DNA of 64,000 nt from the NCBI RefSeq assembly GCF_963921235.1, contig NC_086108.1, forward strand, positions 21,452,001 through 21,516,000. Reading direction: 5' to 3'. Position 1 is the first letter of the stretch. The number at the start of each line of letters is the position of its first letter. The DNA comes from Mobula hypostoma. Its lineage: Eukaryota. The notes under the pieces were generated by a model. The model ran no database searches. It saw only the letters and a program-made list of their open reading frames with translations, and was not told the DNA's origin. The translations under genes and the position numbers were made by a program. Shown here in pieces: positions 1-49,379 of this stretch.

Positions 1-391
1 CACAAAGCCCTATCTTCACATTGAGGATACTCCTAATCATAGTGTGTGATATTAAAAAAGTGCTGAATGTCAGAACAGATCTGACAGCTCAAAACTGGAT
101 AACCAAGAGAACCATGAATCATTACAAGCATCAGGATGTACAAGACAGCCAGTTCTTGGTAAATAATAACATTTATTCTACCATTACCTTCTTACTGCAT
201 TTGTCTTGTTGAATGGCATTCCAGGAGCAATATCAGGATTAGTGTAGAAGTGTGCTTGATGGTCAGCACAGATTTTATTGTCCAATACACCCCATTATTG
301 ATTGTACAACTCTATCACTCCAAATGTTAATAGTACAGATGTAATTTCACAAATATATAACTGAAGTATAACCTTCATAACTGAGCATTCA

Positions 392-545
392 CACCAAAGT
401 TGCTGGTGAACGCAGCAGGCCAGGCAACATGCTGCCTGGCGACTGTACCTCTTCCTAGAGATGCTGCCTGGCCTGCTGCGTTCACCAGCAACTTTGATGT
501 GTGTTGCTTGAATTTCCAGCATCTGCAGAGTTCCTGTTGTTTGCG
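392..545. mobile_element. Fold-back mini Penelope-like element (two inverted PLE 3' ends)
   Basis: Left arm caccaaagttgctggtgaacgcagcaggccaggca is near-exactly the reverse complement of the right arm tgcctggcctgctgcgttcaccagcaactttgatgtg. Perfect 14-bp TSD taactgagcattca at 378-391 and 546-559. The same terminus follows the GIY-YIG ORFs elsewhere in the window. Confidence 0.85.
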
Positions 546-768
546 TAACTGAGCATTCAATTGTGTTTGCAATATATCAGAACACTGGTTAGCTTTCCTT
601 GCCTAATCTACACGATACCCATTTGTGAATCATGAACTGTATCAACATTTAGATCAGGGTTTCCTAACCTGGGGTCCATGGACCCCTCGATTAATGGTAA
701 GGGTCCGTGGCGTAAAGGTTGGGATCTCCCCCTGGGGGCGGTGGGACTTCCTAAGGAGCGCTCAGTAG

Positions 769-1571
769 CAATGTTCCCTCTAATTTGTAATGTCCAGAGC
801 GTGTTATTTTGTGCTATGCAATTTATCGCCCAGTGACAACATGTGCACATTGAATTTTATATATAGAGGCATTCATTTCAACAGCTAGCAAAGCACTGTC
901 AATAAGAACTCTGATCTCCTTTAGGTTTGATCATTTTCACTCTTGTTCATCTGCGCTCTCACAAAACAGAAGTAGCAGGCCTGTAGTGGGTAATGGAAGG
1001 CTTTCTCTCCGGAGCTTTTGCACACCATGCGTATGTAATTTACTTGCTAAATGACACTTTAAAAGTCAAGTTTCCAAATATTACTCCACTTCGTCCCACT
1101 TGTAAACTTTCTAGCAACTTTTCTATTACAATAATACACGTAGATAACATCAGTTTCTGTATTGTACATAAATATTTCTCATAGCTGCACGTTCCAGACC
1201 TCATGAGCTTTCGGTGTAGCAGTTTCTACTGTTTCATTAAGCCATTCTGTTTTAAATGAACTAGCAATTCTTCTGCACTTCGCGCCCTTTGCTTCTTTAG
1301 AATTCAACATAATGAATCAATAATTTCTTCAATAAATACAATATAAATAAGCCAGTTCTAAAATCTGTAGACAAATCATCGCAAACTCCATGTTGTCAAC
1401 ACTGCCCACATCAGAAATGGGAAAAGGAAATGTGATTGTGTATGATCATGAAATACACTTAACATGCCAATGAGGTAGAAGGTGACAACCTTTTGTGCAC
1501 TTTAAATTGTTTTGTGAACTAGTAGCAAAAGATGTGTGTGCGCACACACGCACACCTTAGAGGGAACATTG
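769..1571. mobile_element. Non-autonomous hAT element (MITE-like)
   Basis: Perfect 15-bp TIRs caatgttccctctaa / ttagagggaacattg. 8-bp TSD ctcagtag (761-768) / ctcaatag (1572-1579) with 1 mismatch; 8-bp TSDs are typical of hAT. Confidence 0.85.
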
Positions 1572-1872
1572 CTCAATAGCAAGGTGGTGGGAGCTGTGGG
1601 ATTACAAGCTTAATTTAAGAAAAGAATTAATTATTATAACCATTTGATCCTCAGTGCCTCATAATTGATTACAATGATCATGTAATCACCTCATCTCTTG
1701 CTAACCTGTGCTCTCTCAGATTTTGGCATATCCTGAGAAAGCTGGACAGAAGAAATTGTGTTATTTCTGAAGCTGACCTATGCATCATTACTGTTCAGTA
1801 CTACAGTTAGTATTAGCTAGTATGATTCCCATACTCTGTTCCTGCGAATTAGGATATGGCGCTCAAAGGGGT

Positions 1873-2808
1873 TGTGACGAAAGAGGGTTACAAAAAGTAC
1901 ACATAGACTAAGATGTTAACTGTCCTGTGCTGGCACCAGTGGGATCAGCAGTTGATCTGCCACCTGTCTTCAGGAGAAAGAGAGATAAGGAAGACAATGG
2001 AGCAGCATTTGGAAATGTTAATGAAGAGACGAGAGAGTTTAACGGAAGGAGACACCGGTCTGAGAACTGTCAAGATCGGCTCCTTTTTGAACCCTGAACT
2101 GTTTGAAGTGTGATGGACAGGCGATACCCCAGCAGGGGGATAAAAAGGGACAGGTTCGCTAAGGCAGGACACACACGACACCACGAGGTAACAAGACCCT
2201 GGAAGCGGTGCGCCTCCCACAAGTCGGTGGGAGCTTTTGGAGGGCTGAACACGGGACCAAGCCATAGACGCACAGGGTGGAAAGGTACAATCGGCGGGAA
2301 CCTGGTATGTGTCCGCCCTTGCCTGGGTGCCAGGTTCACTGCAGAGGAATGATCGTATCTGAAACGGAGGGATCACAGTTGGTGACCTCAGAAGACATTA
2401 CAAAGGGCTCGCCCAAAAGCTGACTGTGAGGAATATCGAAGGTCTGTGTGGAAGCCGTTTTGAATATTCATTCCCTTTCGCACTCTCTCTCCTTCCCCCC
2501 CCCCCCCCCCGTCCACCGGCACGGCAGTGATTACTGTGAACTGAACTGAACTCAATTGAACTGAACTTTGCGTCACTTTAAAACTGGTCATTTACCCCTA
2601 GACGACGATAGAGCTTGATTGATCCTATTATCCTAGTTCTGTGTACATGTGTGTTTATCATTGCTGAACTGTTGTATTGATTATCCTTTTGATTAGAGTA
2701 CTGTGTTGCTTATTTCTTTAATAAAACTTTCTTAGTTCCAGTAATCCAGACTCCAACTGAGTGATCCATTTCTGCTGGTTTGGCAACCCAGTTACGGGGT
2801 ACGTAACA
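1873..2808 (+). repeat. 5' LTR (about 936 bp)
   Basis: TG...CA termini with short inverted ends (tgtgacg/cgtaaca), aataaa near 2720, and a (gaact)n run at about 2538-2566. Confidence 0.85.
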
Positions 2809-2812
2809 TAAG

Positions 2813-2831
2813 TGGGATTCTCGTCCGCGAT
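2813..2831 (+). promoter_or_regulatory. Primer-binding site, tRNA-Pro-like (degenerate)
   Basis: tgggattctcgtccgcgat lies 4 nt after the LTR and resembles the tRNA-Pro PBS TGGGGGCTCGTCCGGGAT. Confidence 0.6.
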
Positions 2832-2903
2832 TTTGAACGCTAAATTTGGGACGGAGTAAATTGATTGGGTTAAAATTCCTGAAAGAAAAGGCAAACAGCA
2901 GAA

Positions 2904-3120
2904 ATAGAGATTGAGGAATTTCTAAAGGCGCCGACCTTGGAGGCATTAGAGGATGCCAGGAAAGCGGAATTGACAGCTGTGGCCAAACAGTTGAATCTTG
3001 TTAAGGGGAAGTTGACAATGAGGAGAGAGGAGATACACAGAGCTATCGTAGAGCACTATGTATCTAAAGGTGTGTTTCCCCAAGGTGAGCTGGGGGTGGT
3101 GTCTATTGAAAAACCTGCTG
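2904..3120 (+). pseudogene. Truncated N-terminus of Gypsy-type gag
   Basis: Frame EIEEFLKAPTLEALEDARKAELTAVAKQLNL...RREEIHRAIVEHYV just after the PBS. The start codon appears mutated to ATA, and the frame is cut off by the CR1 fragment. Confidence 0.55.
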
Positions 3121-3900
3121 AAAAACCCAGTCCAGAATAGCCTGCCCTCTAGTTGGTTCCTCGACATGTTGGTTCAAAAAACCATCCCGCATACATTCCA
3201 AGAAATCCTCTTCCACAGCACCTTTACCAATTTGGTTCACCCAGTCTACATGTAGATTGAATTCACCCATTATAACTGCTGTTCCTTTATTGCACACATT
3301 TCTAATTTCCTGTTTAATACCATCTCCGACCTCACTACTACTGTTAGGTGGCCTGTACACAATTCCCACCAGCGTCTTCTGCCCCTTAGTGTTACGCAGC
3401 TCTACCCATATCGATTCCACATCTTCCCGGCTTATGTCCTTCCTTTCTATTGCGTTAATCTCTTCTTTAACCAGCAACGCCACCCCACCTCCCCTTCCTT
3501 CATGTCTATCCCTCCTGAATATTGAATATCCCTGAACGTTGAGCTCCCATCCCTGGTCACCCTGGAGCCATGTCTCTGTGATCCCAACTATATCATAATC
3601 ATTAATAACAATCTGCACTTTCAATTCATCCACCTTATTATGAATGCTCCTTGCATTGACACATAAAGCCTTCAGGCGCTCTTTTACAACTCTCTTAGCC
3701 CTTGTACAATTATGTTGAAAAGTGGCCCTTTTTAATGCTTGCCCTGGATTTGTCGGCCTGCCACTTTTACTTTTCTCCTTTGTACTTTTTGCTTCTACGC
3801 TCACTTTACACCCCTCTGTCTCTCTGCACTGGTTCCCATCCCTCTGTTGTGAACTAACCTCCTCACGCCTAGCCTCTTTAATTTGATTCCCACCCCCCAA
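3121..3900 (-). pseudogene. CR1 LINE ORF2 N-terminus (APE endonuclease), truncated
   Basis: ORF 3103-3900(-) with APE motifs LCVNARSI, DIVGITETWL, GGGVALLV, GIVYRPPN, IMGEFN, EPTRGQAILDWV. Confidence 0.9.
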
Positions 3901-3905
3901 CCATT

Positions 3906-4620
3906 CTAGTTTAAAGTCACCTCAGTAGCCCCCGCTAATCTCCCTGCCAGGATATTGGTCCCCCTAGGATTCAAGTGTAACCCGTCCTTTTTGTACAGGT
4001 CACGCCTGCGCCAAAAGAGGTCCCAATGATCCAAAAACTTGAATCCCTGCCCCCTGCTCCAATCCCTCAGCCACGCATTTATCCTCCACCTCATCGCATT
4101 CCTACTCTCACTGTCGCGTGGCACAGGCAGTAATCCCGAGATTACTACCTTTGCGGTCCTTTTTCTCAACTCCCTTCCTAGCTCCCTATATTCTCCTTTC
4201 AGGACCTCATCCCTTTTCCTACCTATGTCATTGGTACCTATATGTACCACGACCTCTGGCTCCTCACCCTCCCACTTCAGGATATCTTGGACATGATCAG
4301 AAATATCCCGGACCCTGGCACCAGGGAGGCAAACTACCATCCGGGTCTCTGGACTGCGTCCACAGAATCGCCTATCTGACCCCCTTACTATCGAGTCCCC
4401 TATCACAACTGCCCTCCTCTTCCTTGCCCTACCCTTCTGAGCTACAGGGCCAGACTCTGTGCCGGAGGCACGGCCACTGTCGCTTCCCCCGGGTAAGCTG
4501 TCCCCCCCAACAGTACTCAAACAGGAGTACCTGTTGTTAAGGGGCACAGCCACCGGGGTACTTCCCATCACCTGACTTTTCCCCTTCCCCCTCCTAACCG
4601 TGACCCACTTGTCTGCCTCC
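3906..4620 (-). pseudogene. CR1 LINE ORF1 C-terminal part (SGNH/GDSL esterase-like domain)
   Basis: ORF 3906-4571(-) with VIGDSIVRG, CLPGARVRD, VHIGTND, DGLHLN. Homologous to ORF1 at 48440-49366. Confidence 0.9.
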
Positions 4621-4800
4621 CATGTGTGTTTATCATTGCTGAACTGTTGTATTTATTATCCTTTTGATTAGAGTACTGTGTTGCTTATTTTCTTTCACCT
4701 CAGTAGCTTTCTTAGTTTCTTTCTTAGTTCCAGTAATCCAGACTCCAACTGAGTGATCCATTTCTGCTCGTTTGGCAACCCAGTTACGGGGTACGTAATA
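4621..4800 (+). repeat. 3' LTR remnant
   Basis: Direct repeat of 2646-2808 ending cgtaata, followed by TSD gggt. Confidence 0.9.
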
Positions 4801-5680
4801 GGGTAGAGTTCAGAATCTGCCCTTTTGAATGGTCTTAACTGCATTTCTCATGGCCCAATTGAGATATTGTTACCCAACTTTTCAGGCAGTGAGTCAGGTT
4901 TTGCCTGAGCTATTATGATATTATTACTTTCCCCTTTATGATGCAGCACTTGATGTTGGACTTCAATAACAAGCAATTGACTATGGTCATTAATCCATAA
5001 GAAAAATGGCAGAAGCAGATAAAGTTTTCACCTTGTGAAAACTTCCCGAAATGGAAAAACCTCAAAACACATTTGCTTGCACTTCACAACAAAATAGCAC
5101 TGATTTGCATGGTTCATACATTTCACTGCATTGCTCACTGCTAAATCTGGAATGCCCCACACAACTGGAGAAGAGCTAATGCTGCCTATAGTAAGAGAGG
5201 TTCTGAGTTTTGCATTAGCCACCTACCTATACTGTTAAAGTGATTCTGCTTGGCGACAACTCTATTCAAAGACGAGTCGATGAAATGTCTCAGCATGCGG
5301 AAGATACTTAGGACAACAGTATTTGCTAGGTAGTTGGACGAGTCAACTTTGCCAGGCAACATATCTTTCTTCTTGGTTGTGTTCTCTTCATAAAGGATAA
5401 AAGCATGATCCATGAGTTGTTAGTTACAAGGATACAAGACACAGATATGAAGGAGTCGTCAATATTTCGGGATGTTGAAAATTTTTTAAAGAGAATACAT
5501 TCCACTTACCAACATTCTTGCTTGTGCAATAGATGGGGCATCATCATAACAGGACGCCACCATAGGATCATTACTTTCTTGAAAAAAGATGAAGCTGACA
5601 TATTTACCATTCATTATGTAGTTCATAGGCAACATCTTGTCGCAAAACACCCAAGTGATCAGCTGCACCAGTCATTTAAT

Positions 5681-6500
5681 CAACATACATCAAAGTTGCT
5701 GGTGAACGCAGCAGGCCAGGCAGCATCTTTAGGAAGAGATACAGTCGACGTTTCAGGCCGAGACCCTTCGTCAGGACTAACTGAAGGAAGGGTTAGTAAG
5801 AGATTTGAAAGTGGGAGGGGGAGGGAGAGGGGGAGATCCAAAATGATAGGAGAAGACAGGAGGGGAAGGATGGAGCCGAGAGCTGGACAGGTGATTGGCA
5901 AAGGGGATATGAGAGGATCATGGGACAGGAGGCCCAGGGACAAAGACAAGGAGGGGGGGAACCCAGAGGACGGGCAAGGGGTATAGTCAGAGGGACAGAG
6001 GGAGAAAAAGGAGAGTGAGAGAAAGAATGTGTGTATAAAAATAAATAACAGATGGGGTACGAGGGGGAGGTGGGGCAATAGCGGAAGTTAGAGAAGTCAA
6101 TATTCATGCCATCAGGTTGGAGGCTACCCAGACGGAATATAAGGTATTGTTCCTCCAACCTGAGTGTGGCTTCATCTTTACAGTAGAGGAGGCCGTGGAT
6201 AGGCATGTCAGAATGGGAATGGGATGTGGAATTAAAATGTGTGGCCACTGGGAGATCCTGCTTTCTCTGGCGGACAGAGCGTAGGTATTCAGCAAAGTGG
6301 TCTCCCAGTCTGCGTCGGGTCTTGCCAATATATAAAAGGCCACATCGGGAGCACCGGACGCAGTATATCACCCCAGTCGACTCACAGGTGAAGTGATGCC
6401 TCACCTGGAAGGACTGTTTGGAGCCCTGAATGGTGGTAAGGGAGGAAGTGCAAGGGCATGTGTAGCACTTGTTCCGCTTACAAGGATAAGTGCCAGCTTA
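5681..6500 (-). mobile_element. 5'-truncated Penelope-like element (GIY-YIG endonuclease plus 3' end)
   Basis: ORF 5793-6404(-) reads FTCESTGVIYCVRCSRCGLLYIGKTRRRL...VATHFN...EQYLIFRLGSLQPDGMN. TSD cagtcatttaat (5669-5680) / caatcatttaat (6501-6512). Confidence 0.9.
5743..5778 (-). ncRNA. Minimal type-I hammerhead ribozyme motif in PLE 3' end
   Basis: Minus strand reads AGUC-CUGACGA-AGG-gucucgg-CCU-GAAA-CG-UC-GACU: stem I AGUC/GACU, conserved CUGANGA and GAAA boxes, stem II AGG/CCU, GUC cleavage triplet. Confidence 0.8.
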
Positions 6501-8586
6501 CAATCATTTAATACTGTTTTCACAAGCAGCAAATAAAATCAAGTTCCATGCTTTCAATTGACTGGTTTGAGAGCTTTGATTTAAGAACAATAAACAGATG
6601 GAATGCTTGCTGTTGCACACAGAAGTCAGATGGCTCTCAAAAGGAAACTGCCTGCGACACTTTAATGCACTCTTTGAAACTGATAAAGTTCTTTGAAGAT
6701 TCAAATGCTTCATTCAGTAATCAACTCAAGAATATTAGGCATGGCATTGCTTATTTGCCAGAATTATTTTCAAGGTTTAATGAAATCAATTGAATTGCAA
6801 GGAAAGAATGTGAATCTTATCAAGGTCAAAACAGTTGTCTCCATATTTCTGTCCAAGATAACCCTATTTAAGTGCAACACTGGCTATCACAACATTTTCC
6901 GATTTCTGAGCCTCTCTTTGCCAAAAGGGAAAGAAAAAGAGCAGATGATGGTCTTCAAGTATGCTGTGTCCACCTGGGTGAGCTGCTTAAAGAATTGTCA
7001 GAGAAATTTCAGGATCTTCTCTTGATCCAAATTCCAGATTGGCCAATAAATCCATTCCATCCTGAACACTTGTAATGAGAAATCAACAGGAAGAATGGAG
7101 AGGAAAGAAACATATCTCACTACAAAATGACTTTGAGCTAGAGGTTCAAAACATCACATTAAGACTTTTGATTGTAGAAAGAAAACTCGGAATGCTATCC
7201 TGGAATGTGGAAAAATGTCAAGATATTCTTCATTACCTTTCCGACATCATATTTAGTGGAACGCAGTTTTAGTGCAGCTGCCCAACTTTTTTCAAAGCAA
7301 TGAAACAGACTACATATTCCTAATATGGGAATCTGAGACTCCTGTGTAACATTCAGCCTGTTTTTGAGAAGCTGCACCAAGCCCATCCACCTCATTGAAA
7401 GGTGAAAAAGCAATCAAGTAGTAAATACTTGGACTACGAATGTATACTCTAAAATTGTTGATGAAAATTGCTTTTACCATAATAAAGGAACAAAATAATT
7501 TTTGTAGCTTTAAATAGATTTGAAATTTTTTTGCAATTACTTGTCACTGCTTTGAATTTGCAGTTCCTATTTTCTTTCACTGTGCATTGCAAATCAAAAT
7601 TCTCTCTAGCTTTTACATAATGAATGGAAAGGAGAGAGGGACGCTGAGGCTGTGGTCTGGGAGCCAAGCATGCAGTAACCCAAAAAAGGTTTGGGAACCA
7701 CTGATTTAGAAATTTCCTAACTAAATGTGCAATTACACAATTTCCCTTATTATTCTCCATTTTCCAGACCTTTACCCATTCACCTATCAATTTCCCTTTG
7801 TAGCCTTATGTCATCTTCACAAATTAAATTCCAGTCTGTCTTTAAATTATTAGCAAGTTTAGCAATCAGTGCCTTTATCCAAATCATTTACATAACTCAT
7901 AAAAAGCTGTAATCCCAACAAAAGAATGCAATTCTGATTCCCATTATTGTCCTTGCCAATGCATTACCATGACTTTTATTTTCCACAATAATTTGTTGCA
8001 GCATCTAATCAAATGCCTTCTGGAAATCTAAGTACAACACATCCACTGGCTTTCCTTTACCCACAGCATGCATTACTTCCTCAAATTATTCCAATTAATT
8101 CATCAAACCTGATTTCCCTGTCACAAAACCCAACTCGGTTCTTCCTGATCATTTCGTATTTGTCTAAATTGCAATACCTTCTCTATTCTGACATTCTTCC
8201 TGCAACAGATATTCAGCTAACTGGTCTGCCACTTCCTCCCTTTTTGAATAAAGGAGCTGCATTCACTATATTCCAGTGGAATGAAACCTCCCTTGAATTT
8301 AGAGAATTTTAGAAAATTGAGGCCAACACATTAACTACCGCACTAAACACTCTGAAGACCCTTGGATGAAGTCCAACTCTGTAGAAACCCTTATTATCCA
8401 TGTTCCTATTTTCAGCTAGCTTTGCCTTGTTCTCTTATTTTTCCTTACTTATCAATTTTTTGTATATTCTTTGACTTGCTCCAGCAATAGGTTCTGGTTT
8501 ACAGTTCCATGAATGGAGTTATGACATACTATTAGCAACATCTTCCTATTCTGTTTTTGCGAGCTTTTCATTCAGTTTGAAAATAA

Positions 8587-8995
8587 GTAAGACCATAAGA
8601 CATAGGAGCAGAATTAGGCCATTTGGCCCATGAAGTCTGCTTCACCATTTCATCATGGCTGATCCAATTTCCCTCCCAGCCCCAATCTCCTGTCTTCTCC
8701 CCATATCTCTTCAAGCTCTGACCAATCAAAAATCTATCAACCTCTGCCTTAAATGTACATAAACACTTAGCCTCCACAACTGCTTGTGGCAAAGAATTCT
8801 ACAGATTTATCACTCTCTGGCTAATGAAATAGCTCCTCAACTCCCTTCTAAAAGGACGTCCCTCTATTCAGAGGCTGTGTCCTTGGTCTTAGACACTCCC
8901 ACCATAGGAAACATCCTCTCCACATTCCACTCTATCAAGGCCTTTCACCATTTGATAGGTTTCAATAAGGTCACCCCTCATTCTTCTGACTTCTG
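8587..8995 (-). mobile_element. CR1 LINE 3' fragment
   Basis: Minus-strand remnant (PQAVVEAK...FKAEVDRFL...GYGEK-like) and a CR1-type 3' UTR/tail homologous to 52200-52437. Confidence 0.75.
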
Positions 8996-14600: not shown

Positions 14601-17396
14601 ATACATACTTGGAATTATGATGTAGTGGCCATTACATAGACTTGGTTGGCACCAGGGCAGGAATGGATTCTCAATATTCCTGGATTTCAGTGCTTTATAA
14701 GGGATAGAGAGGGCGGAAAAAGGGGAGGAGTGGTGGCATTACTGGTCAGGGATACAATTACAGCTACAGAAAGGGTGGGTAACGTAGCAGGATCCTCTTT
14801 TGAGTCAGTATGGGTGGAAGTCAGGAACAGGAAGGGAGCAGTTACTCTGTTGGGAGTATTCTATAGGCCCCTGGTAGCAGCAGAGATACAGAGGAGCAGA
14901 TTGGGAGGCAGATTTTGGAAAGGTGCAAAAATAACAGGGTTGTTATCATGGGTGACTTTAACTTCCCTAATATTGATTGGCACCTGATTAGTTCCAAGGG
15001 TTTAGTTGGGGCAGAATTTGTTAAGTGTGTCCAGGACGGATTCCTGTTACAGTATGTGGACAGGCCGCCTAGGGGGAGTGCCATACTAGATCTAGTACTA
15101 GGTAATGAACCGGGTCAGGTCACAGATCTCTCAGTGGGTGAGCATCTGGGGGACAGTGACCACCGCTCCCTGGCTTTTAGCATTATCATGGAAAAGGATA
15201 GAATCAGACAGGACAGGAAAATTTTTAATTGGGGAAGGGCAAATGATGAGGCTATAAGGCTAGAACTTGCGGGTGTGAATTGGGATGATGTTATTGCAGG
15301 AAAATGTACTATGGACATGTGGTCGATGTTTAGAGATCTCTTGCAGAATGTTAGGGATAAATTTGTCCCGGTGAGGAAGATAAAGAATGGTAGGGTGAAG
15401 GAACCATGGGTGACAAGTGAGGTGGAAAATCTAGTCAGGTGGAAGAAGGCAGCATACATGAGGTTTAGGAAGCAGGGATCAGATGGGTCTATTGAGGAAT
15501 ATAGGGCAGCAAGAAAGGAGCTTAAGAAGGGGCTGAGAAGAGCAAGAAGGGAACATGAGAAGGCCCTGGCGAGTAGGGTAAAGGAAAAACCCCAAGGCAT
15601 TCTTCAATTATGTGAAGAAAAAAAGGATGACAGGAGTGAAGGTAGGACCGATTAGAGATAAAGGTGGGAAGATGTGCCTGGAGGCTGTGGAAGTGAGCGA
15701 GGTCCTCAATGAATACTTCTCTTCGGTATTCACCAATGAGAGGGAACTTGATGATGGTGAGGACAATATGAGTGAGGTTGATGTTCTGGAGCATGTTGAT
15801 ACTTAGGGAGAGGAGGTGTTGGAGTTGTTAAAATACATTAGGACGGATAAGTCCCCAGGGCCTGACGGAATATTCCCAAGGCTGCTCCACGAGGCGAGGG
15901 AAGAGATTGCTGAGCCTCTGGCTAGGATCTTTATGTCCTCGTTGTCCATGGGAATGGTACCGGAGGATTGGAAGGAGGCGAATGTTGTCCCCTTGTTCAA
16001 AAAAGGTAGTAGGGATAGTCTGGGTAATTATAGACCAGTGAGCCTTACATCTGTGGTGGGAAAGCTGTTGGAAAAGATTCTTAGAGATAGGATCTATAGG
16101 CATTTAAAGAATCATGGTCTGACCAGGGACAGTCAGCATGGCTTTGTGAAGGGCAGATCGTGTCTAACAAGCCTGATAGAGTTCTTTGAGGTGACCAGGC
16201 ATATAGGTGAGGGTAGTGCAGTGGATGTGATCTATATGGATTTTAGTAAGGCATTTGACAAGGTTCCACATGGTAGGCTTATTCAGAAAGTCAGAAGGCA
16301 TGGGATCCAGGGAAGTTTGGCTAGGTGGATTCAGAATTGGCTTGCCTGCAGAAGGCAGAGGGTCGCGGTGGAGGGAGTACATTCAGATTGGAGGATTGTG
16401 ACTAGTGGTGTCCCACAAGGATCTGTTCTGGGACCTCTACTTTTTGTGATTTTTATTAACCACCTGGATGTGGGGGTAGAAGGGTGGGTTGGCAAGTTTG
16501 CAGATGACACAAAGGTTGGTGGTGTTGTAGATAGTGTAGAGGATTGTCAAAGATTGCAGAGAGACATTGATAGGATGCAGAAGCGGGCTGAGAAGTGGCA
16601 GATGGAATTCAACCCGGAGAAGTGTGAGGCGGTACACTTTGGAAGGACAAACTCCAAGGCAAAGTACAAAGTAAATGGTAGGATACTTGGTAGTGTGGAG
16701 GAGCAGAGGGATCTGGGGATACATGTCCACAGGTCCCTGAAAGTTGCCTCACAGGTGGATAGGGTAGTTAAGAAAGCTTATGGGGTGTTAGCTTTCATAA
16801 GTCGAGGGATAGAGTTTAAGAGTCGTGATGTAATGATGCAGCTCTATAAAACTCTGGTTAGGCCACACTTGGAGTACTGTGTCCAGTTCTGGTCGCCTCA
16901 CTATAGGAAGGATGTGGAAGCGTTGGAAAGGGTACAGAGGAGATTTACCAGGATGCTGCCTGGTTTAGAGAGTATGCATTACGATCAGAGATTAAGGGAG
17001 CTAGGGCTTTACTCTTTGGAGAGAAGGAGGATAAGAAGAGACATGATAGAGGTGTACAAGATAATAAGAGGAATAGATAGAGTGGATAGCCAGCGCCTCT
17101 TCCCCAGGGCACCACTGCTCAATACAAGAGGACATGGCTTTAAGGTAAGGGGTGGTAAGTTCAAGGGGGATATTAGAGGAAGGTTTTTCACTCAGAGAGT
17201 GGTTGGTGCGTGGAATGCACTGCCTGAGTCAGTGGTGGAGGCAGATACACTAGTGAAGTTTAAGAGACTACTAGACAGGTATATGGAGGAATTTAAGATG
17301 GGGGCTTATATGGGAGGCAGGGTTTGAGGGTCGGCACAACATTGTGGGCCGAAGGGCCTGTGCTGTGCTGTTCTATTCTTTGTTCTATGTTCTATG
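14601..17396 (+). mobile_element. 5'-truncated CR1 LINE (ORF2 APE + RT, 3' UTR)
   Basis: ORF2 pieces at 14646-14987, 14915-15655, 15612-15806 and 15816-17327, and a (ttctatg)n-like tail at about 17371-17396. Confidence 0.92.
15816..17327 (+). pseudogene. CR1 ORF2 reverse-transcriptase portion (503-aa open frame)
   Basis: KSPGPDGI, NYRPVSLTS, QHGFVKGRSCLT, YMDFSKAFDKVPH, GVPQGSVLGPLLF, KFADD, RPHLEYCVQFW. Upstream ORF2 is broken by frameshifts and a stop. Confidence 0.92.
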
Positions 17397-21026: not shown

Positions 21027-21200
21027 AACACGAGGAAGTCTGCAGATGCTGGAAATCCAAAGCAACACACGCAAAATACTGAAGGAACTCAGCAGATCAG
21101 GAAGCATATATGGAACTGAATAAACAGCTGACATTTTGGGCTAAGACTCTTCTTCAGGATTTGAAAGGAAGGGGAAAAACACCAGAATAATAAGATGGGG
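21027..21200 (-). mobile_element. Old PLE 3' end fragment with decayed hammerhead
   Basis: aaacacgaggaagtctgcagatgctggaaatccaaagcaacacac...ctgacattttgggctaagactcttcttcaggat is homologous to the younger PLE ends. Confidence 0.65.
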
Positions 21201-22195: not shown

Positions 22196-22199
22196 CCTG

Positions 22200-23445
22200 G
22201 AAGAGATTCGGGACACTCAGCATGGCTTTAGCATAGAAATCATGCCTGACAAATCTCTTGGAGTTTTTTGAGGTGGTAATCAAGAGGGTAGATGAATACC
22301 ATGAGAGTAGGGAAGAGGATGTTGCTTATATGGACTTTAGCAAGGCCTTTAACAGGGTCCCTCATGGCAAGTTAGTCTGGAAGTTTAGACCATGGGATGT
22401 AGGGAGTGATAGCAGATTGGATTCATAATTGGCTGAATTGGCTTAGTGGTAGGAATCAAAGGGTATTGATCGAGGGTTTTTTCTTGGACTGGGGACCTGT
22501 GTCTAGTGGTGTGATAGAGGGGTCAATGCCGGGACCTATGTCATTTGCAGTTACAAAAGGCATGGTTAGTAAATTTATGGATACAAAATAGATGGTGTTG
22601 TGCAAAGTGTAGAGCTTTATAAAAAATTACAAGGGGATCTTGATCAGCTAGGTACGTGGGCTGAGATCTGGCGAATGGCTTTCAATCCATAATAAAGTAA
22701 GGTATTGTACTTTGGGAGATCAAACAGGGATTGGATTTAGGCACTGAATGGTAGGGCTCTGGGAATGTTATGAATGAGCGACCTGGGAGTGTATTTAAGT
22801 GCATAGTTTGCTGAAAGAAATCTCACAGTTAGAGAGGATGGTGTAGAAGGTGCTTGGCACACTGCCCCAGAGTGCACTGAATGTAGGACGCTATGTTGAA
22901 GTTATTTAAGACATTGGTGAGGCTGCACTTGGAGTACCTTGTACAATTTTTGTAATGTTCTTGTAGGAAAGGTGTTAGAAAAATAGAAAAAGTACGAAAA
23001 AGATTTACCATGATGTTTTCTGGACTTGGGGGGCATGAGATATCAGAAGAGGATGCATAGAATAGGGTTTTTTTTTCCCTAGAACATATTCGATTCAGGG
23101 ACGACAGGATTGAGCAATTTCAGATCATGAGGGGAATAGACAGGGTGAAAACACATAGTCTTTTCTCCAGGGAGGGGATGCTAAAAACAGGAGCACATAG
23201 GATGATAAAACAAGAGCACATAGGTTTAAAATCTGACGTGAGAGATTTAGAGTAGATTCTGAATATTTAGTGCATATTCAGAACAAGTAGCCAGAAATAG
23301 TGGCTAAGGCAGCAACATTTAAGAGACACCTTGATAAGCACATAGATAAGTTTTGAGGGCTATGAGCCAAAAGCAGGTAGATGGGACTCACTGGCAACAT
23401 AGTTGGCATGCACAAGTTGGGTCAAAGAAACCATTTTCATTCTTT
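22200..23445 (+). mobile_element. Degraded CR1 3' portion (RT)
   Basis: Recognisable pieces QHGF..KSCLTNLLEFF, YMDFSKAF, WIHNWL..RNQRV, HLEY, with many stops and frameshifts. Confidence 0.75.
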
Positions 23446-23473
23446 ATGATTGGAGCTGAGGATGTATTTCAGA

Positions 23474-24154
23474 ATGCAAACTCGAGGAATTCTGAAGATG
23501 CTGGAAATTCAAGCAACACACATCAAAGTTACTGGTGAACGCAGCAGGCCAGGCAGCATCTCTAGGAAGAGGAACAGTCGACGTTTCGGGCCGAGACCCT
23601 TTGTCAGGGCTAACTGAAGGAAGAGCTAGTAAGAGATTTGAAAGTGGGAGGGGGAGGGGGAGATCCAAAATGATGGGAGAAGACAGGACAGGGAGCAACA
23701 CACATCAAAGTTGCTGGTGAAGCAGCCTCCAACCTGATGGCATGAACATTGACTTCTCTAACTTCCGCTAATCCCCCACCTCCCCCTCGTACCCCATCCG
23801 TTATTTATTGATATACACACATTCTTCTTCTCTCTCTCTCCCTCTGTCCTTCTGACTACACACCTTGCCCATCCTTTGGGTTTCCCCCCCACCCCCCTTT
23901 TCCTTCTCCCTGGGCCTCCTGTCCCATGATCCTCTCGTATCCCTTTTGCCAATCAACTGTGCAGCTCTTGGCTCCATCCCTCCCCCTCCTGTCTTCTCCT
24001 ATCATTTTGGATCTCCCCCTCCCCCTCTCAAATCTCTTACCAGCTCTTCCTTCAGTTAGTCCTGACAAAGGGTCTCGGCCCGAAATGTCGACTGTACCTC
24101 TTCCTAGAGATGCTGCCTGGCCTGCTGCGTTCACCAGCAACTTTGATGTGTGTT
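23474..24154. mobile_element. Fold-back PLE insertion with inverted 3' ends and an extra internal terminus
   Basis: Minus-strand PLE end at about 23474-23690, a second short end at about 23693-23721, and a plus-strand PLE piece at about 23722-24154. 13-bp TSD gatgtatttcaga (23461-23473, 24155-24167). Hammerheads at 23576-23611(-) and 24058-24093(+) both have CUGACAA cores. Confidence 0.85.
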
Positions 24155-24919
24155 GATGTATTTCAGATCTGGGTGAGGTAGAAGATTCAGCATATTCACA
24201 ACCACAGTGGACTTCAGAGTGTTCTGCGGATGACGCAAAAAAAACCTGTGGAAGGTTTTCCATAATCTTAAACTAAGGCTGACACCTCACTATGAAGTGT
24301 AAGGTAATGATGCACAGAAATCTAACAACATTTAGCATGTGTGAAATTAACTGACAATTAAGCAAAAATTGTTGATTGCTATATTTACAATCCTTTGGTT
24401 AAAATTTTGTCGGATAGGAACAGCAGGCAGATGAACAAAATTATTCTCAATTTCCAAAATATTTTAAAGGAACCAGACCATTCACCGGATATCTTATAAT
24501 CACTGCTTGATAGGCCCAATGCAGGTTCTCAGCTGTTAAAAGAAATGAGCTGCTCATTTGAGGAAGTGATAATTCATCAACTATTGGAATATTTTGGAAA
24601 CAAAAGAGTTGAAAAGGAAATAAATTCAAAATACTTGATTAGTCACCATTTCTGTGCTGTAGTTTCTATAGTTTCTATTCACTATCCATCATCTGATTAA
24701 TCCACCTTCGTCTCTCATAATTATTCGAAGTCGATAATTATTGCTTCTCTACATACACAGGCTGCCTTCGAATTGTCAGTATAACTTTCCACTCTAACCT
24801 TCTGAGCTTTCTTAAAAAAAATCCTGGCTATCAATAGCATTTCTTAGTCTATTCCAATCTGTGTTCATATTCTTTAAGAAAGCTGCAAGTCTGACAGTGG
24901 GCATCAAGTGTCTTGACTT

Positions 24920-26960
24920 TTAACACTTCTCTCTCCAATTCCAACCTCTCTCCTTCCGAACGCTGAGCTCTTCACTCCCTCTGCACTAATCCTAACCTCA
25001 CTCTCAAACCGGCTGATTAGGAGGGTGCTGTAGTAGTCTGGTGTACTGACCTCTATCTTGCTGAGGCCCAACAACAACTCTCAAACATCTCCACTTACTA
25101 CCCCCTCAAACAGGACCCCACTAAGGAGCACTAGGCCATTGTCTCCCACACCATCATTGACCTTATTAGCTCTGGGGGTCTCCCATTTCCACTGCCTCCA
25201 ACCTCATAGCTCCGTCACCCTGCACCTGCTACTTCTATCTCCGACCCAAGACCCAGAAACCTGCTTGTCCAGGTAGACCCATTGTTTCAGCTTGTTCCTG
25301 CCCCACTGAACTCGTATCTGCATACCTCAACTGTTTTCCCCACTTGTTCAGTCCCTTCCTACCTACATCTGTGACACTTCACACGCTCTGGATCTTTTCA
25401 ATAATTTCAAGTTCCCTGGCCCCCATCATCGCATTTTTACTATGGATGTCCAGTCCCTATACACCTCCACCCCTCCCCCGCCCCCCCAACAGGAAGGCCT
25501 CAAAGCTCTAGGTTTCTTTCTGGACACCAGACCCAGCCAGTTCCCCTCCACCACCATTCTCAACCATCTAACGGAACGTCCTCACTCTTAATTATTTCTC
25601 TTTTGGCTTCTCCTACTTGCTTCAAACAAAAGGTGTACCCATGGGCACTCCTATGGGTCCCAGCTATGCCCACCTTTTTGTTGGCACGTGGAACAGTCTA
25701 TGTTCCAAGACTACCCCGGTGACCATCCCCCGCTTTTCCTATGCTACTTCGAGGACTGCATTGGAGCTGCTTCCTGCACACATGCAGAACTTGCTGACTT
25801 CATCCACTTTGCCTCCAGCTTCCACCCTGCTCTCAAATTCACCAGTTCCATTTTCGACACCTTCCTCCATTTCATGGTCTCTCCATTTCTATCTGTGCAG
25901 ACAGCTCATCTACTGATGTCTATTATAAACCCACAGACTCTCACAGTTACCTGGACTATCACACACAAAATGCTGGTGGAACTCAGTAGGCCAGGCAGCA
26001 TCTATGGAAAGAAGTACAGTCGTTATTTCGGGTTGAAATCCTTCAGCAGGACTGGAGAAAAGAGCTAAGGAGTACTTGGAACATCAGTGGTACTTTTTTT
26101 CCATAGATGCTGCCTGGCCTGCTGAGTTCCTCCAGAATTTTGTGCGTGTTGCTCAGATTTCCAACATCTCTATATCTTCTCATTTGTTACCTGGACTATA
26201 CCTCTTCCCCTTCTCTCACTTCCTCTGTCAACCCCGCATCTACTCTCAGGATGAGATTTTTCATTCCAGAACGAAGGAGATGTCCCCCTTCTAAGAAAGG
26301 GGCTTCCTGTCCTCCACCATCAACGCTGCCCTCCACCGTATCTCTTCCATTTCACGCAGGTCTGCTCTCATCCCATCCACCCACCACCCTACCAGGGATA
26401 GGTTTCCTCTCGTCCTCACCTACCACCCTACCAGCCTCCTAGTCCAGCACATAATTCTCTGCAAATTCCTCCATCTCCAACAGGATCCCATCACCAAGCA
26501 CATCTTTTCTCCCCTCCCACTTTCTGCTTTCCACAAGGATTGCTCCCTACGCAACTCTTGTCTATTCATCCTTCCCCACTGATCTCCCTTCTGACACATC
26601 CTCGCAAGTGGAATAAGTGCTACATCTGCCCCTACACCTCCCTCCTCACTACCATTCTAGTGCTCCTCCCCCCTTTTCTTTCTTCCATGGCCTTCTGTCC
26701 TCTCCTATTAGATTCTCCCTTTTCCAGCCCTGTATCTTTTTCACCAATCAACTTCACAGCTCTTTACTCCCCCGCCCCCCCACTCCCGGTTTTTTCTTGT
26801 CTTTCTCTCTCCCCTCCCCCTCCACACCTTTTAACTCGACTCCTCATCTATTTTTCACCAGACTTGCTGAAAGGTCTCAGCCTGAAATATTGACTGTACT
26901 CTTTTCCAGAGATGTTGCCTGGCCTGCTGAGTTTCTTCAGAATTTTGTGTGCGTGGCCTG
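24920..26960 (+). mobile_element. Older PLE with degraded reverse transcriptase
   Basis: LKPAD*.GAVVVW.TDLYLAEAQQQLS, FTMDVQSLYT, QTKGVPMGTPMGPSYAHLFVG, LCYFEDCIG, RKWNKCYICPY, and a PLE 3' end with decayed hammerhead at about 26860-26895. Confidence 0.85.
25960..26185. mobile_element. Fold-back mini-PLE nested in the older PLE
   Basis: Inverted arms cacacaaaatgctggtggaactcagtaggccaggcagcatctatgg / ccatagatgctgcctggcctgctgagttcctccagaattttgtg. 14-bp TSD gttacctggactat (25946-25959, 26186-26199). Confidence 0.85.
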
Positions 26961-27493
26961 AGAGTCCCTTATGAGCATGCAAGACTTGGAGCTTTCCAAG
27001 GTAAGGCTGACGGTCTTATCATTATTCAGACAAACTAAGAAAGTACTTATGATTTCCAGTCGTAATCCAAAATTGTGAAGCCAAACCTCTTAAGATTATA
27101 TTTGTTCACTTGCAAGAAGGCACTTTGCTTTAAAAACCAAATACTGATTTTGGCACTTAATTCTGATAATTTCTTCAAGCAAAGTCAAGAACATTTGAAT
27201 ATAATGAGAATCCTTTTAAGCAAGAGATTAATTAAAATGGATTATTATAAAAACTCATCAGCAACCGATATAATTATTTTATAAATTAGAAGAGTCAATT
27301 CACTCCCTAGGTAGACTGAGGTTTTCGGTCGCTTTTTTTAAATAAGAAAAATAATGCCTACCCCACCAAAGGCTGAAGACTACCCTGTTTCTTTTAAGTC
27401 TCAGTTGTTGGAAATGACATGTCTGATCAAGAAACATACATCAAAGTTGCTGGTGAACGCAGCAGGCCAAGCAGCATCTATAGGAAGAGGCGC

Positions 27494-27529
27494 AGTCGAC
27501 GTTTCAGGCCTAGAGCCTTCGTCAGGACT
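27494..27529 (-). ncRNA. Minimal type-I hammerhead ribozyme motif
   Basis: AGUC-CUGACGA-AGG-cucuagg-CCU-GAAA-CG-UC-GACU. It differs from the other copies only in loop II. Confidence 0.8.
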
Positions 27530-27824
27530 AACTGAAGGAAGAGTGAGTAAGGGATTTGAAAGCTGGAGGGGGAGGGGGAGATGCAAAATGATAGGAGAAG
27601 ACAGGAGGGGGAGGGATAGAGCCGAGAGCTGGACAGGTGATAGGCAAAAGGGGATACGAGAGGATCATGGGACAGGAGGTCCGGGAAGAAAGACAAGGGG
27701 GGGGGTGACCCAGAGGATGGGCAACAGGTATATTCAGAGGGACAGAGGGAGAAAAAGGAGAGTAAGAGAAAGAATGTGTGCATAAAAATGAGTAACAGAT
27801 GGGGTACGAGGGGGAGGTGGAGCC

Positions 27825-28300
27825 TTAGCGGAAGTTAGAGAAATCGATGTTCATGCCATCAGGTTGGAGGCTACCCAGACGGAATATAAGGTGTTGTTCC
27901 TCCAACCTGAGTGTGGCTTCATCTTTACAGTAGAGGAGGCCGTGGATAGACATGTCAGAATGGGAATGGGATGTGGAATTAAAATGTGTGGCCACTGGGA
28001 GATCCTGCTTTCTCTGGCCGACAGAGCGTAGATGTTCAGCAAAGCGGTCTCCCAGTCTGCGTCGGGTCTCACCAATATATAAAAGGCCACATCGGGAGCA
28101 CCGGACGCAGTATATCACCCCAGTCGACTTACAGGTGAAGTGATGCCTCACCTGGAAGGACTGTTTGGGGCCCTGAATGGTGGTAAGGGAGGAAGTGTAA
28201 GGGCATGTGTAGCACTTGTTCCGCTTACACGGATAAGTGCCAGGAGGGAGATCAGTGGGGAGGGATGGGGGGGACGAATGGACAAGGGAGTTGTGTAGGG
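27825..28300 (-). pseudogene. PLE GIY-YIG endonuclease domain
   Basis: C-terminal part of ORF 27825-28595(-): VIYCVRCSRCGLLYIGETRRRLGDRFAEHLRSV...LEEQHLIFRLGSLQPDGMN. Confidence 0.9.
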
Positions 28301-29179
28301 AGCGATTCCTGTGGAATGCAGAGGGGGGGGGAGGGGAAGATGTGCTTAACGGTGGGATCCCGTTGGAGGTGGCGGAAGTTACGGAGAATAATATGTTGGA
28401 CCCGGAGGCTGGTGCGGTGGTAGGTGAGGACCAGGGGAACCCTATTCCTAGTGGGGTGGTGGGAGGATGGTGTGAGAGCAGATGTTCGTGAAATGGGGGA
28501 GATGCGTTTAAGAGCAGAGTTGATAGTGGAGGAAGGGAAGCCCCTTTCTTTAAAAAATGAAGACATCTCCCTCGTCCTAGAATGAAAAGCCTCATCCTGA
28601 GAGCAGATGCGGCGGAGACGGAGGAATTGTCTGATCAAGAGCTGATTTATATTATCATCTGTAGACCTTGTGTGAAGACGAACTTTTCAATAACGTGCAG
28701 AGTGAAAATAATCAAGAGAAATAATCAATGGAGAGGTCTGTCCCACAATTCACTAAAGTTACAATCTGGATGCCAACAAAAGCTGAAGTGATTAAGTTGC
28801 AGGGTATGTGTTCCCCACTTTTTCTCTCTTTTCAAAGATATCCCTCTGTCCTCCTGTTTATCAGAAACAAAATATAAATTTAAAACACATTTTATTGTTG
28901 GTAGAAAACAAACAACATCCAGTGTGATCAGTTAAACTATTCTGCCTCTTGTATCAGAATTATGTACTTCAGATGGCAGGGCATCAAAGATATTTTTACA
29001 GATGCAGGAGGTCCACTAAAACAATAAAGTCACACTGTTTTGATTGCTGTTGTACCACACAAGCTTTAATCAGCCTACTAGAAACAATATCTACAGAATT
29101 TAGCAGGGAAAATTAACCTTAGAATGGAAAACTATTTCACAGTGCTCTCCCTACCCTCAAGAAACACAACTGTGAGGTC

Positions 29180-30225
29180 AGAATTAGAATCAGGTTTAAT
29201 ATCACTGGCATATACCACTCAAACAACTGATCTGCTTCACTCTGTATGCCTCCTCATCACCATCTAAAATTTATTATGAAAGTACATATGTATCACCATA
29301 TACAACCCTGAGATTGGTTTGGTTACAGGCATACTCAGTAAATCCAAGAACCACAAAAGAATCCATGAAAGATGCACCCAACATCATTGGCAAATTTATA
29401 GATGGTGTTTGAGCTGTATCTAGCCATATGGAACACAGTCATGTGTGTAGACAAGAGTAGAGCAATGGGCTAAGCACGCATCTTTGTGCACCAGTGTTGA
29501 TAATCAGGAAAGATGAGACGTTATTTCTAATCTGCACTGGCTATGGTCTCCTGAGGATGAAGTCAAAGGTCCAGTTGCAGAGAAAGGTATAGAGATCCAG
29601 GTATTGGAGTTGTTGATTAAAACTGAGGGTACGATTGTGTTGAATCCTGAGCGGTAATCAACAAACAGCAGTCTGACATAGGTATTGCTATTCCCAAACA
29701 CAGGCAAATCTGCAGATGCTGTGCACACCAAATGCTGGAGGAACTCAGCAGGTCAGCCAGCATCTATGGAAAAGAGTAAACAGTCGACATTTCGGGCCGA
29801 GACCCTTCATCAGGACTGGAAAAGGAGGAGAAATTTGCCAGAATAAAAAGATGGGGGGAGGGGAGGGAGGACAAGCTAGAAGGTGATCGGTGAAGCCAGT
29901 TGTGTGGGTCCTGATGAAGGGTCGCAACCCAAAACATTGAATGCTTACTCTTTTCCATACATGTTGCCTGGCATGCTGAGACCCTCAAGCATTTTGTGTG
30001 TGTTGCTAGGTACTGCTATTGTTTAGGCAATTCAAGACCGAGTGGAGAGCCAGGGAGATTCCATCCACTGTAGACCTATTGTGTCAATAGGCAAATTGTA
30101 GTGGCTCCAGGTCCTTGCTTAGGCAGGCGTTGGTTCTGGCTGGCCATGACCAACCTCTCAAACCCCTTCACTTCAGTAGATCAGAGTGCACCTGGATGAT
30201 AGTCATTGAAGCAACTCACCCCGCT
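29180..30225 (-). mobile_element. Rex1/Babar-type LINE fragments
   Basis: Minus-strand NTYVRLLFVDYRSGFNTIVPSVL and a 3' tail (aataaacctgattct-like). Interrupted by a mini-PLE. Confidence 0.65.
29693..30006. mobile_element. Fold-back mini-PLE (older subfamily)
   Basis: Inverted PLE ends with hammerheads at 29782-29817(-) (CUGAUGA...GAAAUGUC) and about 29907-29942(+) (decayed). TSD taggtattgctatt (29679-29692) / taggtactgctatt (30007-30020). Confidence 0.8.
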
Positions 30226-30304
30226 CGTCTTGAGCATTAGTATCCCATTTCTGGTCCAGTTCACTGCAAAGATGCATGTTCCCACCCACAAGATGTCTAT
30301 ATTG

Positions 30305-30715
30305 AGTTTCAAATGTCATAAAATCACATACAGCATGGAAATAGATCCGGCGACCCAAATGGTCCATGCTGATGAAGATTCCCATCTAAACTAGTCATAT
30401 TTGCTTGCATTTAGCCCATATCCCTCTACTCCTTTTCTGTCAATGTACCGATCCAAATACCCTTTAAATGTTGGTAATATGCCTGCCTCAACCACTTCCC
30501 CTAGTTGTCCACTCTCTGGGTGAAAAGGTTGCTCCTCATGATCCTATTAAACCTCTTCTTTCTCACCTTAATGTTATGATTCCTCAGAGCTGAGAAGACT
30601 GCGTGTATTCACCCCATCTATGCCCCTCAGTTTTAGACAACTCCTTAAGATCATCCCTCTTTTTCATACACTCAATGAAAAAAGTCCAACCTGCTCAACC
30701 TCTCTTGGAGAGGCT
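30305..30715 (-). mobile_element. Degraded CR1-type 3' fragment
   Basis: Reverse-oriented CR1 3' UTR and ORF2 end (ccactctctgggtgaaaa is the FTQRVV motif on the minus strand). Confidence 0.55.
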
Positions 30716-31510
30716 CTCCAAGCCTCTCTGAATAATTATATCACCATCACTGATTTATGTGAATGCCTGGCTCTTCCATTTTGGGTAACAAAGAGAATTT
30801 CTAGTAGTTTTGTCTGGAGCTTAAGGAAGGCCTGCACTAAGTGTAGAATGCATATACACCTCCGAAACCACCTTCTCAACATGCCAATTACCTTTTGTCC
30901 CACCTTACAGAACCCATGGGTTCCATACAGCCACCTCAGAACCCACAGAATCAGAACATCTAAGAAGAAACTAAAAGAAAGGAATAAAATAAAAAATGCA
31001 GAGGAGCAAATCAAATTAAGGATTTGCAGATTTGAGAATTCAGGTAATATTCCTACAAACTAATTATTGATATTATTGGCACATTCAGCATTAAACAATC
31101 TGTACAACAAATAGTGAAGGAAAAGCTAACAATTACTTGACACTCTTAATAAGAGCAATCTACCCTTTATTCTGGTTAAGATAAATCTAAATGACCATAT
31201 CAGCCAATAACTGTGGAAGAGGTATGCAAATAAATGTTGTCAAATGAATTTGATTTTGTATAACAATAAAGTAAAACAGAGCCTATCAGTCAAGACTACT
31301 ATAGACCAGATGTTTGGCTGTGTCACAAGCCTTTATACATTGTGGAAGTTAAACAATCTATATTAATTGCTTGCTAATTCTATTTATTACAGCAAATCCT
31401 AATAAGAAGGCAACACATAATTAGTCCATTAATGAAAAGTTATTTTTCGTTCCATTCCTGTTCTTCTTAAACATCCCATTCTAACCAAAACAAACTGCTC
31501 TCAAAAAATA

Positions 31511-31698
31511 CACATCAAAGTTGCTGGTGAACGCAGCAGGCCAGGCAGCTAGCTCTTCCTTCAGTTAGTCCTGACGAAGGGTCTCGGCCTGAAACGTCGA
31601 CTGTACCTCTTCCTAGAGATGCTGTCTGGCCTGCTGCGTTCACCAGCAACTTTGATGTGTGTTGCTTGAATTTCCAGCATCTGCAGAATTCCTCGTGT
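31511..31698. mobile_element. Fold-back mini-PLE with intact hammerhead
   Basis: Inverted arms cacatcaaagttgctggtgaacgcagcaggccag / ctggcctgctgcgttcaccagcaactttgatgtg. TSD ctgctctcaaaaaata (31495-31510, 31699-31714). Confidence 0.88.
31567..31602 (+). ncRNA. Minimal type-I hammerhead ribozyme motif
   Basis: agtc-ctgacga-agg-gtctcgg-cct-gaaa-cg-tc-gact read directly on the plus strand. Confidence 0.82.
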
Positions 31699-31849
31699 CT
31701 GCTCTCAAAAAATATCAACTTTTCTTGGTGTTGCCATGAACCGTGTTGCATGCTGTTCTGATCACTTCCATTTTCCACAAGAAGCAACTTCTCACAATTT
31801 GTTACTTGGGATGCAAAACCACTATAAGAAAATTAAGTATTTTTGACAC

Positions 31850-49366: not shown

Positions 49367-49379
49367 TTTGGCAGGGGGA

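What the first reader, a model, noticed from the sequence alone, without database searches (positions are those of the whole stretch)
378..31714. Five fold-back mini-PLEs: inverted PLE ends inside one 13-16 bp TSD with a fixed long-arm/short-arm asymmetry
Seen at 392-545, 23474-24154, 25960-26185, 29693-30006 and 31511-31698. Each has two PLE 3' ends pointing outward and a single TSD around the whole unit, so each was one insertion event. One arm always carries an extra tail of about 30-45 nt (...gcttgaatttccagcatctgcagaattcctcgtgtttgc) while the other stops near gatgtgtgttg. The internal junction differs every time and two subfamilies show the pattern. Known: PLEs can have inverted pseudo-LTRs and a short 3' tail. 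Inference: this is a footprint of the integration mechanism, with the two target strands primed at two different RNA positions, rather than a self-propagating MITE. It seeds the genome with long hairpins (dsRNA or editing substrates), and some units have hammerheads on both strands.
Basis: partly seen in the sequence, partly recalled or inferred. Interest (0 to 1): 0.7.

Follow-up and report, generated by a model that had tools for sequence, protein, structure and literature searches.

The report
Head-to-head Penelope stubs, one-sided tail
Five short DNA hairpins here are separate insertions of a Penelope-type jumping gene in a layout already described for this class, and their joints suggest that each was likely written from both cut DNA strands, one copy starting about 40 bases further along the element's RNA than the other.

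Summary
All five units carry 13-16 bp target-site duplications (0 of 300 random controls reach this). Each has two outward-facing 3' ends, one tailed and one not, and five different junctions. Relatives show empty sites with one TSD copy for two units. The element is a Neptune-type Penelope-like retrotransposon. The layout (inverted 5'-truncated copy, one-sided 30-40 bp tail, TSD) is published (PMC8557442, PMC3846280). Two reverse-transcription start sites bounding the tail, and extension of both strands, are shown in vitro (PMC11167929). What this window adds: in two units each arm holds sequence the other lacks, which excludes simple snap-back copying; both TSD-flanked single copies end at the short site; one tailed arm begins at the predicted ribozyme cut. 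Two-strand priming is the best reading (about 0.65), inferred, and not found in print by my searches. Corrections: no unit has an intact hammerhead core on both strands, and dsRNA or editing is untested. The scan has noted this pattern many times on other DNA (388 findings). Interest modest.

The parts
378..391 (.). U1 left TSD copy (right copy 546-559)
   Evidence: 14 bp exact
392..430 (-). U1 tail-less arm; 5' end about +20 from the predicted ribozyme cut
431..439 (+). U1 filler: short fold-back copy of the neighbouring arm end
   Evidence: sequence
440..545 (+). U1 tailed arm; begins at the predicted ribozyme cut (-1/+1)
23461..23473 (.). U2 left TSD copy (right copy 24155-24167); empty site in organism C
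   Evidence: record 10
23474..23695 (-). U2 tailed arm, 5' end -116; hammerhead core mutated
23696..23721 (-). U2 third end: 26-nt piece ending at the short site
   Evidence: (I12)
23724..24154 (+). U2 tail-less arm reaching into the ORF end (about -375); hammerhead core mutated
25188..26957 (+). Older decayed PLE copy (RT region to short end) into which U3 inserted
   Evidence: tblastn
25946..25959 (.). U3 left TSD copy (right copy 26186-26199)
   Evidence: 14 bp exact
25960..26073 (-). U3 tail-less arm, 5' end about -52
26074..26089 (.). U3 16-nt spacer, origin unresolved (filler or decayed start of right arm)
26090..26185 (+). U3 tailed arm, 5' end about +5 (or about -8 if the spacer belongs to it)
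29679..29692 (.). U4 left TSD copy (right copy 30007-30020)
   Evidence: 14 bp, 1 mismatch
29693..29907 (-). U4 tailed arm; tail with internal gap; intact minimal hammerhead core starting at 29813
29908..30006 (+). U4 tail-less arm starting at the front edge of the hammerhead (-31); blunt junction
31495..31510 (.). U5 left TSD copy (right copy 31699-31714); empty site in organisms C and D
   Evidence: records 13, 20
31511..31549 (-). U5 tail-less arm, 5' end about +22
31549..31698 (+). U5 tailed arm, 5' end about -46 to -51; intact minimal hammerhead core starting at 31571
27433..28627 (-). Single-orientation 5'-truncated copy of the same family with linker and GIY-YIG; short end; 13-bp TSD; empty site in organism C
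   Evidence: record 12
5681..6497 (-). Single-orientation copy, short end, 12-bp TSD (1 mismatch)
60824..61305 (-). Single-orientation copy, short end, no TSD found

Best explanation
Each unit is a separate, dead, heavily 5'-truncated insertion of a Neptune-type Penelope-like retrotransposon, likely made when both nicked target strands each primed a cDNA on the element's RNA. Shown: TSDs, empty sites, arm geometry, unique junctions, family. Inferred: (1) the GIY-YIG nuclease nicks the two strands 12-16 nt apart; (2) one 3'-OH primes at the short site and the other at the long site about 38 nt downstream, the two sites that bound the tail; (3) both cDNAs stop early; (4) their 3' ends are joined head to head by end joining (blunt, 1-5 nt microhomology or short fillers), and gap filling gives the TSD. 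If the second strand does not prime, the result is an ordinary single copy ending at the short site. Whether one RNA is read twice or two RNAs are read is not settled. The hairpins are by-products; no function is shown.
For: TSD around each unit, 5 of 5. Empty sites with one TSD copy in relatives for U2 and U5 (records 10, 13, 20). One short plus one tailed end in 5 of 5; 1 in 32 if ends were independent at 50:50 (my arithmetic). In U2 and U3 the tail-less arm reaches further 5' than the tailed arm (about -375 vs -116; about -52 vs +5 or -8), so neither arm can be a copy of the other. Both TSD-flanked single copies end at the short site. Contigs of other copies leave the reference at 23511-23513 (short site; X1 110 and 123 contigs, X6 101 and 112) and at 23485 (tail; X1 108), with long, low-agreement loose ends typical of unique flanks (six places shown per run). 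U2's third end also stops at the short site. In vitro, an Anolis PLE cuts and extends both strands, starts at two sites that bound the tail, and is predicted to be a dimer (PMC11167929).
Against: PMC11167929 saw no difference in start site between the two strands, so the strict short-plus-long pairing is not reproduced in vitro; that element is a Poseidon, not a Neptune. Older tailed single-orientation copies exist (21028, 41703, 59735, 9234) with no partner arm and no convincing TSD, so short-first is not universal or those copies have decayed. n is 5. No listed contig bridges an internal junction by 31 nt on both sides. U1, U4 and U5 alone are compatible with snap-back. Published opinion differs: tail from nuclease resolution, inversions from self-priming.
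Confidence: 0.65

Rival explanations
1. Both arms are cDNAs, but both begin at the long site and the nuclease trims the tail off one end when the intermediate is resolved.
For: PMC8557442 attributes the tail most likely to EN-mediated resolution; the D. virilis nuclease needs the tail for recognition (cited in PMC11167929); fits 5 of 5 asymmetry.
Against: RT starts directly at both tail boundaries in vitro; U2's internal third end stops at the short site without being an outer end; genome-wide short ends spread over 23511-23513, which fits T/TT shared with the target (my reading).
Confidence: 0.15
2. One cDNA folds back and primes on itself (or an antisense RNA self-primes), so one arm is a copy of the other.
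For: Proposed in PMC3846280 from junction palindromes; U1 has a 9-10 nt fold-back piece at its junction; in U1, U4, U5 the tailed arm contains the whole short arm.
Against: U2 and U3 each have sequence in both arms that the other lacks; 4 of 5 junctions are not centred on a long palindrome; the copied arm would have to stop at the same site as single copies.
Confidence: 0.12
3. The units are members of a self-propagating MITE-like or retrozyme-like family.
For: A few joints between oppositely oriented arms have about 7-10 times single-copy depth (table 5c, X6 depth 520 and 504; table 5c, X13 depth 50), so some junctions are repeated.
Against: Five different junctions and two subfamilies; the 3 opposite-strand joints among the 15 of 32 joints shown each lie in one contig per run at depth 30-62, with X6 unique flank at about 60; 12-16 bp TSDs are shared with single retro-copies.
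Confidence: 0.04
4. Assembly artefact, or two separate insertions that met by chance or recombination.
For: No listed contig bridges an internal junction; short-read assemblies struggle with such structures.
Against: A single TSD around each unit; empty sites with one TSD copy; outward-facing outer junctions of U2 in contigs of two organisms and of U4 in organism B (records 1, 2, 22, 23, 26, 27).
Confidence: 0.02

Closest known systems
Canonical EN+ PLE insertion unit: inverted 5'-truncated copy, one-sided 30-40 bp tail, TSD (PMC8557442 Fig. 2 legend; Adineta Pen2a in PMC3846280; passages read)
   Same: Head-to-head arms, tail on one end, one TSD around the whole unit.
   Different: Here both arms are very short (units 154-681 bp), TSDs are 13-16 bp (8-10 bp in the Adineta examples read), and five of them lie in 32 kb.
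Poseidon of Anolis (PAc), PMC11167929 (parts 1-2 of 4 of the text and passages read; supplements not seen)
   Same: Two RT start sites bounding the tail; both strands cut and extended; hammerhead in the pLTR.
   Different: Different clade; the paper does not treat inverted insertions (its one use of 'inverted' is a blocking group) and found no strand difference in start site.
L1 twin priming (recalled, not read)
   Same: Both target strands prime cDNA; 5' inversion inside one TSD; end-joined junction.
   Different: L1 arms copy non-overlapping parts of one RNA; here both arms copy the same stretch from starts about 38 nt apart.
Minimal hammerheads of PLE pLTRs (PMC4209133, passages)
   Same: Type I core with palindromic short stem III and an extra base before stem II.
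   Different: Intact in only 2 of 10 arms; activity untested; Rfam gave 0 matches at gathering score.
Non-LTR retrozymes derived from PLEs (bioRxiv 10.64898/2026.07.22.740005, passages)
   Same: Short, non-coding, hammerhead-bearing, PLE-derived.
   Different: Retrozymes are tandem direct repeats; these units are inverted and each has its own junction.

Membership tests
EN+ Penelope-like element | RT followed by C-terminal GIY-YIG endonuclease | tested here: met
   PF01541 at E 2e-4, 22.0 bits vs cut-off 22.6, and E 0.008; RT region and C-terminus matched by tblastn with P0001 at E 1e-17 to 6e-51; these lie in longer copies that share the terminus, not in the units
EN+ Penelope-like element | 5'-truncated copies, inverted copy at the 5' end, 30-40 bp tail at one end, TSD | tested here: met
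   against PMC8557442
EN+ Penelope-like element | Minimal hammerhead motif in the pLTR | tested here: met
   5 intact cores with stems I and II in the window by my motif scan; Rfam 0 matches; cleavage not tested
EN+ Penelope-like element | Partial tandem with tail continuing into the ORF start | not tested
   No full-length copy in the window; no genome held
Neptune clade | CX2-5CxxC linker between RT and EN | tested here: met
   CKRNKCYTC upstream of the GIY-YIG motif; the motif is shared with Nematis
Neptune clade | RT phylogeny | not tested
   No reference set on hand; no tree built
MITE | Many copies with the same internal sequence between terminal inverted repeats | tested here: not met
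   0 of 5 junctions shared; listed opposite-strand joints mostly near single-copy depth (low recall)
Non-LTR retrozyme | Tandem direct repeats with active hammerheads | tested here: not met
   Arms are inverted; cores dead or absent in 8 of 10 arms

The most novel reading that the evidence does not exclude
Ordered twin priming on one RNA: the first nick primes at the short site and its RNA:cDNA hybrid occupies it, so the second nick must prime at the long site in the still single-stranded tail and copy the same stretch by displacing the first cDNA. This one rule would explain the inverted pLTR, the one-sided tail and short-ended single copies, and U1 would show that ribozyme-cleaved RNA can be the template in vivo.
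Probability: 0.35. Interest if true: 0.55.

Novelty: new member of a known kind. Interest (0 to 1): 0.3.

Why it matters
How PLEs complete integration after first-strand synthesis is stated as unvalidated in PMC11167929, and the papers read give three different accounts of the tail and the inversion. Very short fold-backs like these keep both priming points and the joint within 150-700 bp, so a census in this genome would test those accounts cheaply. The layout itself is ordinary for the class.

Tried and rejected
No whole genome held, so no genome-wide pairing census. Terminus pattern: 0 matches in viral contigs and metagenome contigs. Rfam: 0 matches. No RNA holder on record; run X5 is only guessed to be RNA and its change spectrum (A>G 11, T>C 7) resembles DNA run X1 (15, 7), which says nothing on editing. 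Stem-loop over the short site: predicted, but z -1.2 to +0.3 in 5 folds, not significant. U3 spacer as a copy of flanking DNA: 8-nt match, also found in 48 of 500 random windows, rejected. Variants shared by the two U2 arms as a sign of one RNA: the shared letters are common genome-wide (about 30% and 71% of depth in X1), uninformative. Pile-up of 5' ends at the ribozyme cut: 1 of 10 arms; not among the six loose-end places shown per run. Pile-up at the ribozyme front edge: 23608 is the top loose-end place in 4 of 4 runs (403, 267, 288, 64 contigs) but its consensus starts with the other subfamily's upstream sequence, so it cannot be separated from subfamily divergence. A sixth fold-back at 37416-37654: partner match E 0.39 and no TSD, rejected. 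TSDs for six older single copies and 60824: none above the random range. No target consensus seen by eye in 7 TSDs.

Full report
Observation. The five units are at the stated coordinates and appear among 13 inverted-repeat pairs in the window. Each is bounded by a direct repeat of 13-16 bp, exact in four and with one mismatch in U4; the same search at 300 random position pairs never scored above 9 against 12-16 for the units. In element orientation one arm of each unit stops 3-9 nt past a conserved box and the other 34-50 nt past it. U1, U2 and U5 belong to one subfamily, U3 and U4 to another. Three details need correction: U2 holds a third, 26-nt end at 23696-23721; U4's tail has an internal gap of about 15 nt; and an intact hammerhead core is found in 2 of 10 arms, never in both arms of one unit.

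Identity. Longer copies with the same terminus encode a C-terminal GIY-YIG domain (PF01541, E 2e-4, just under the curated cut-off) preceded by CKRNKCYTC, the CX2-5CxxC linker given for Neptune and Nematis. A 664-aa homologue (P0001) maps RT sequence to 25188-25975 and 26208-26555, an older copy that U3 interrupts. A motif scan finds five intact minimal type I hammerhead cores in the window, of the kind described in PMC4209133 (passages); Rfam has no match. Neptune is therefore likely, without a tree. The host is probably a cartilaginous fish: the highest-identity named hit is from Narcine (56% over 28% of the query); this is inference.

One event per unit. Contigs of four public runs were laid on 23000-32000 (28 records listed, most not shown; U1 lies outside). 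In organism C one contig joins 23460 to 24155 and another 31494 to 31699; in organism D one joins 31494 to 31699. These are empty sites with one TSD copy for U2 and U5. The single copy at 27433-28627 is also absent in C. No empty site was listed for U3 or U4. Outer junctions of U2 are present in A and B, of U4 in B, and the left junction of U5 in A and B. No listed contig bridges an internal junction by 31 nt on both sides.

Not a MITE. The five junctions differ: U4 blunt; U5 about 1 nt overlap; U1 a 9-10 nt fold-back filler; U3 a 16-nt spacer; U2 an extra short end and a few nt of microhomology. On a single-arm reference, 15 of 32 joints were shown; 3 were opposite-strand, each in one contig per run near single-copy depth. 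Recall is low, and a few joints between oppositely oriented arms reach about 7-10 times single-copy depth, so some junctions are duplicated.

Ends are fixed. Contigs of other copies leave the reference at 23511-23513 (short site) and 23485 (inside the tail, where this reference differs from the common variant) with long unique-looking flanks in X1, X6 and X5; organism C did not show these places among its six. Four single-orientation copies in the window end at the short site (5681, 26957, 27433, 60824), two of them with TSDs. Four older ones carry a tail (21028, 41703, 59735, 9234) with no convincing TSD; 21819 and 37416 are unclear, and 63938 runs off the window.

Mechanism. Arm 5' ends relative to the predicted ribozyme cut, tailed then tail-less: U1 -1 and +20; U2 -116 and about -375; U3 about +5 and -52; U4 about -120 and -31; U5 about -48 and +22. 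In U2 and U3 each arm holds sequence the other lacks, so neither was copied from the other. Both are best read as cDNAs, one from each nicked strand. PMC11167929 (parts 1-2 of 4 read; supplements not seen, and its Figs S1-S2 may bear on strand pairing) shows both strands cut and extended and two start sites bounding the tail, but no strand difference in start site and no need for ribozyme cleavage. I put two-strand priming at 0.65, tail trimming by the nuclease at 0.15 and snap-back at 0.12. One RNA or two is open: the U2 arms share only common variants, and the U1 arms differ at 2 of 39 positions, one of which recurs in the copy at 63938, a slight hint of two templates.

Known versus new. The layout is in print: an inverted 5'-truncated copy with a 30-40 bp tail often at one end only (PMC8557442, 12 of 20 passages seen), Pen2a with inverted pLTR, 31-bp tail and 9-bp TSD (PMC3846280, 11 passages), and a curation guide (PMC8969392, passages). 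Very short PLE insertions are also reported (median 128 bp, PMC9977147, passages). I did not find the two-strand explanation of inverted ends in six searches of the open library; subscription papers such as Evgen'ev and Arkhipova 2005 and Arkhipova 2006 were not seen. The scan holds 388 findings with these words in at least 40 genomes and many in this genome; these are unchecked notes, used as leads only.

Hairpin function. The units are predicted to fold strongly, but nothing here shows transcription, small RNAs or editing.

Verdict. Real, independent insertions in a described layout; the mechanism reading is plausible, partly tested, and worth a census. Interest 0.3.

Noticed in passing
window 23696-23721: A 26-nt third end at the short site sits directly upstream of U2's tailed arm, as if RT re-started at the short site after stalling: a miniature partial tandem.
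   Followed up: partly
window 440-445: U1's tailed arm begins within one base of the predicted hammerhead cut; 1 of 10 arms, so chance is not excluded.
   Followed up: partly
window 29908 and 37521: Two 5' ends fall at the front edge of the hammerhead (about -31).
   Followed up: partly
window 25188-26957: U3 inserted into the RT region of an older copy of its own family.
   Followed up: partly
window 37395-37420: A PLE end of intermediate length followed by a short palindrome; no TSD found.
   Followed up: partly
window 63938-64000: A tailed end of the young subfamily running off the window; possibly a sixth fold-back.
   Followed up: no
window 3103-4652, 14867-17327, 31847-32782, 48401-51491, 54727-57316: Open frames that read like CR1-type LINE ORF1, endonuclease and RT fragments (label recalled, not tested).
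   Followed up: no
window 35191-35244 / 36192-36245 and 29178-29213: A 54-nt inverted pair 947 nt apart from another short high-copy repeat (I7; loose ends).
   Followed up: no
window 6500-7420: AT-rich decayed sequence that looks like a DNA-transposase remnant, interrupted at its left by the PLE copy at 5681-6497 (impression, not tested).
   Followed up: no
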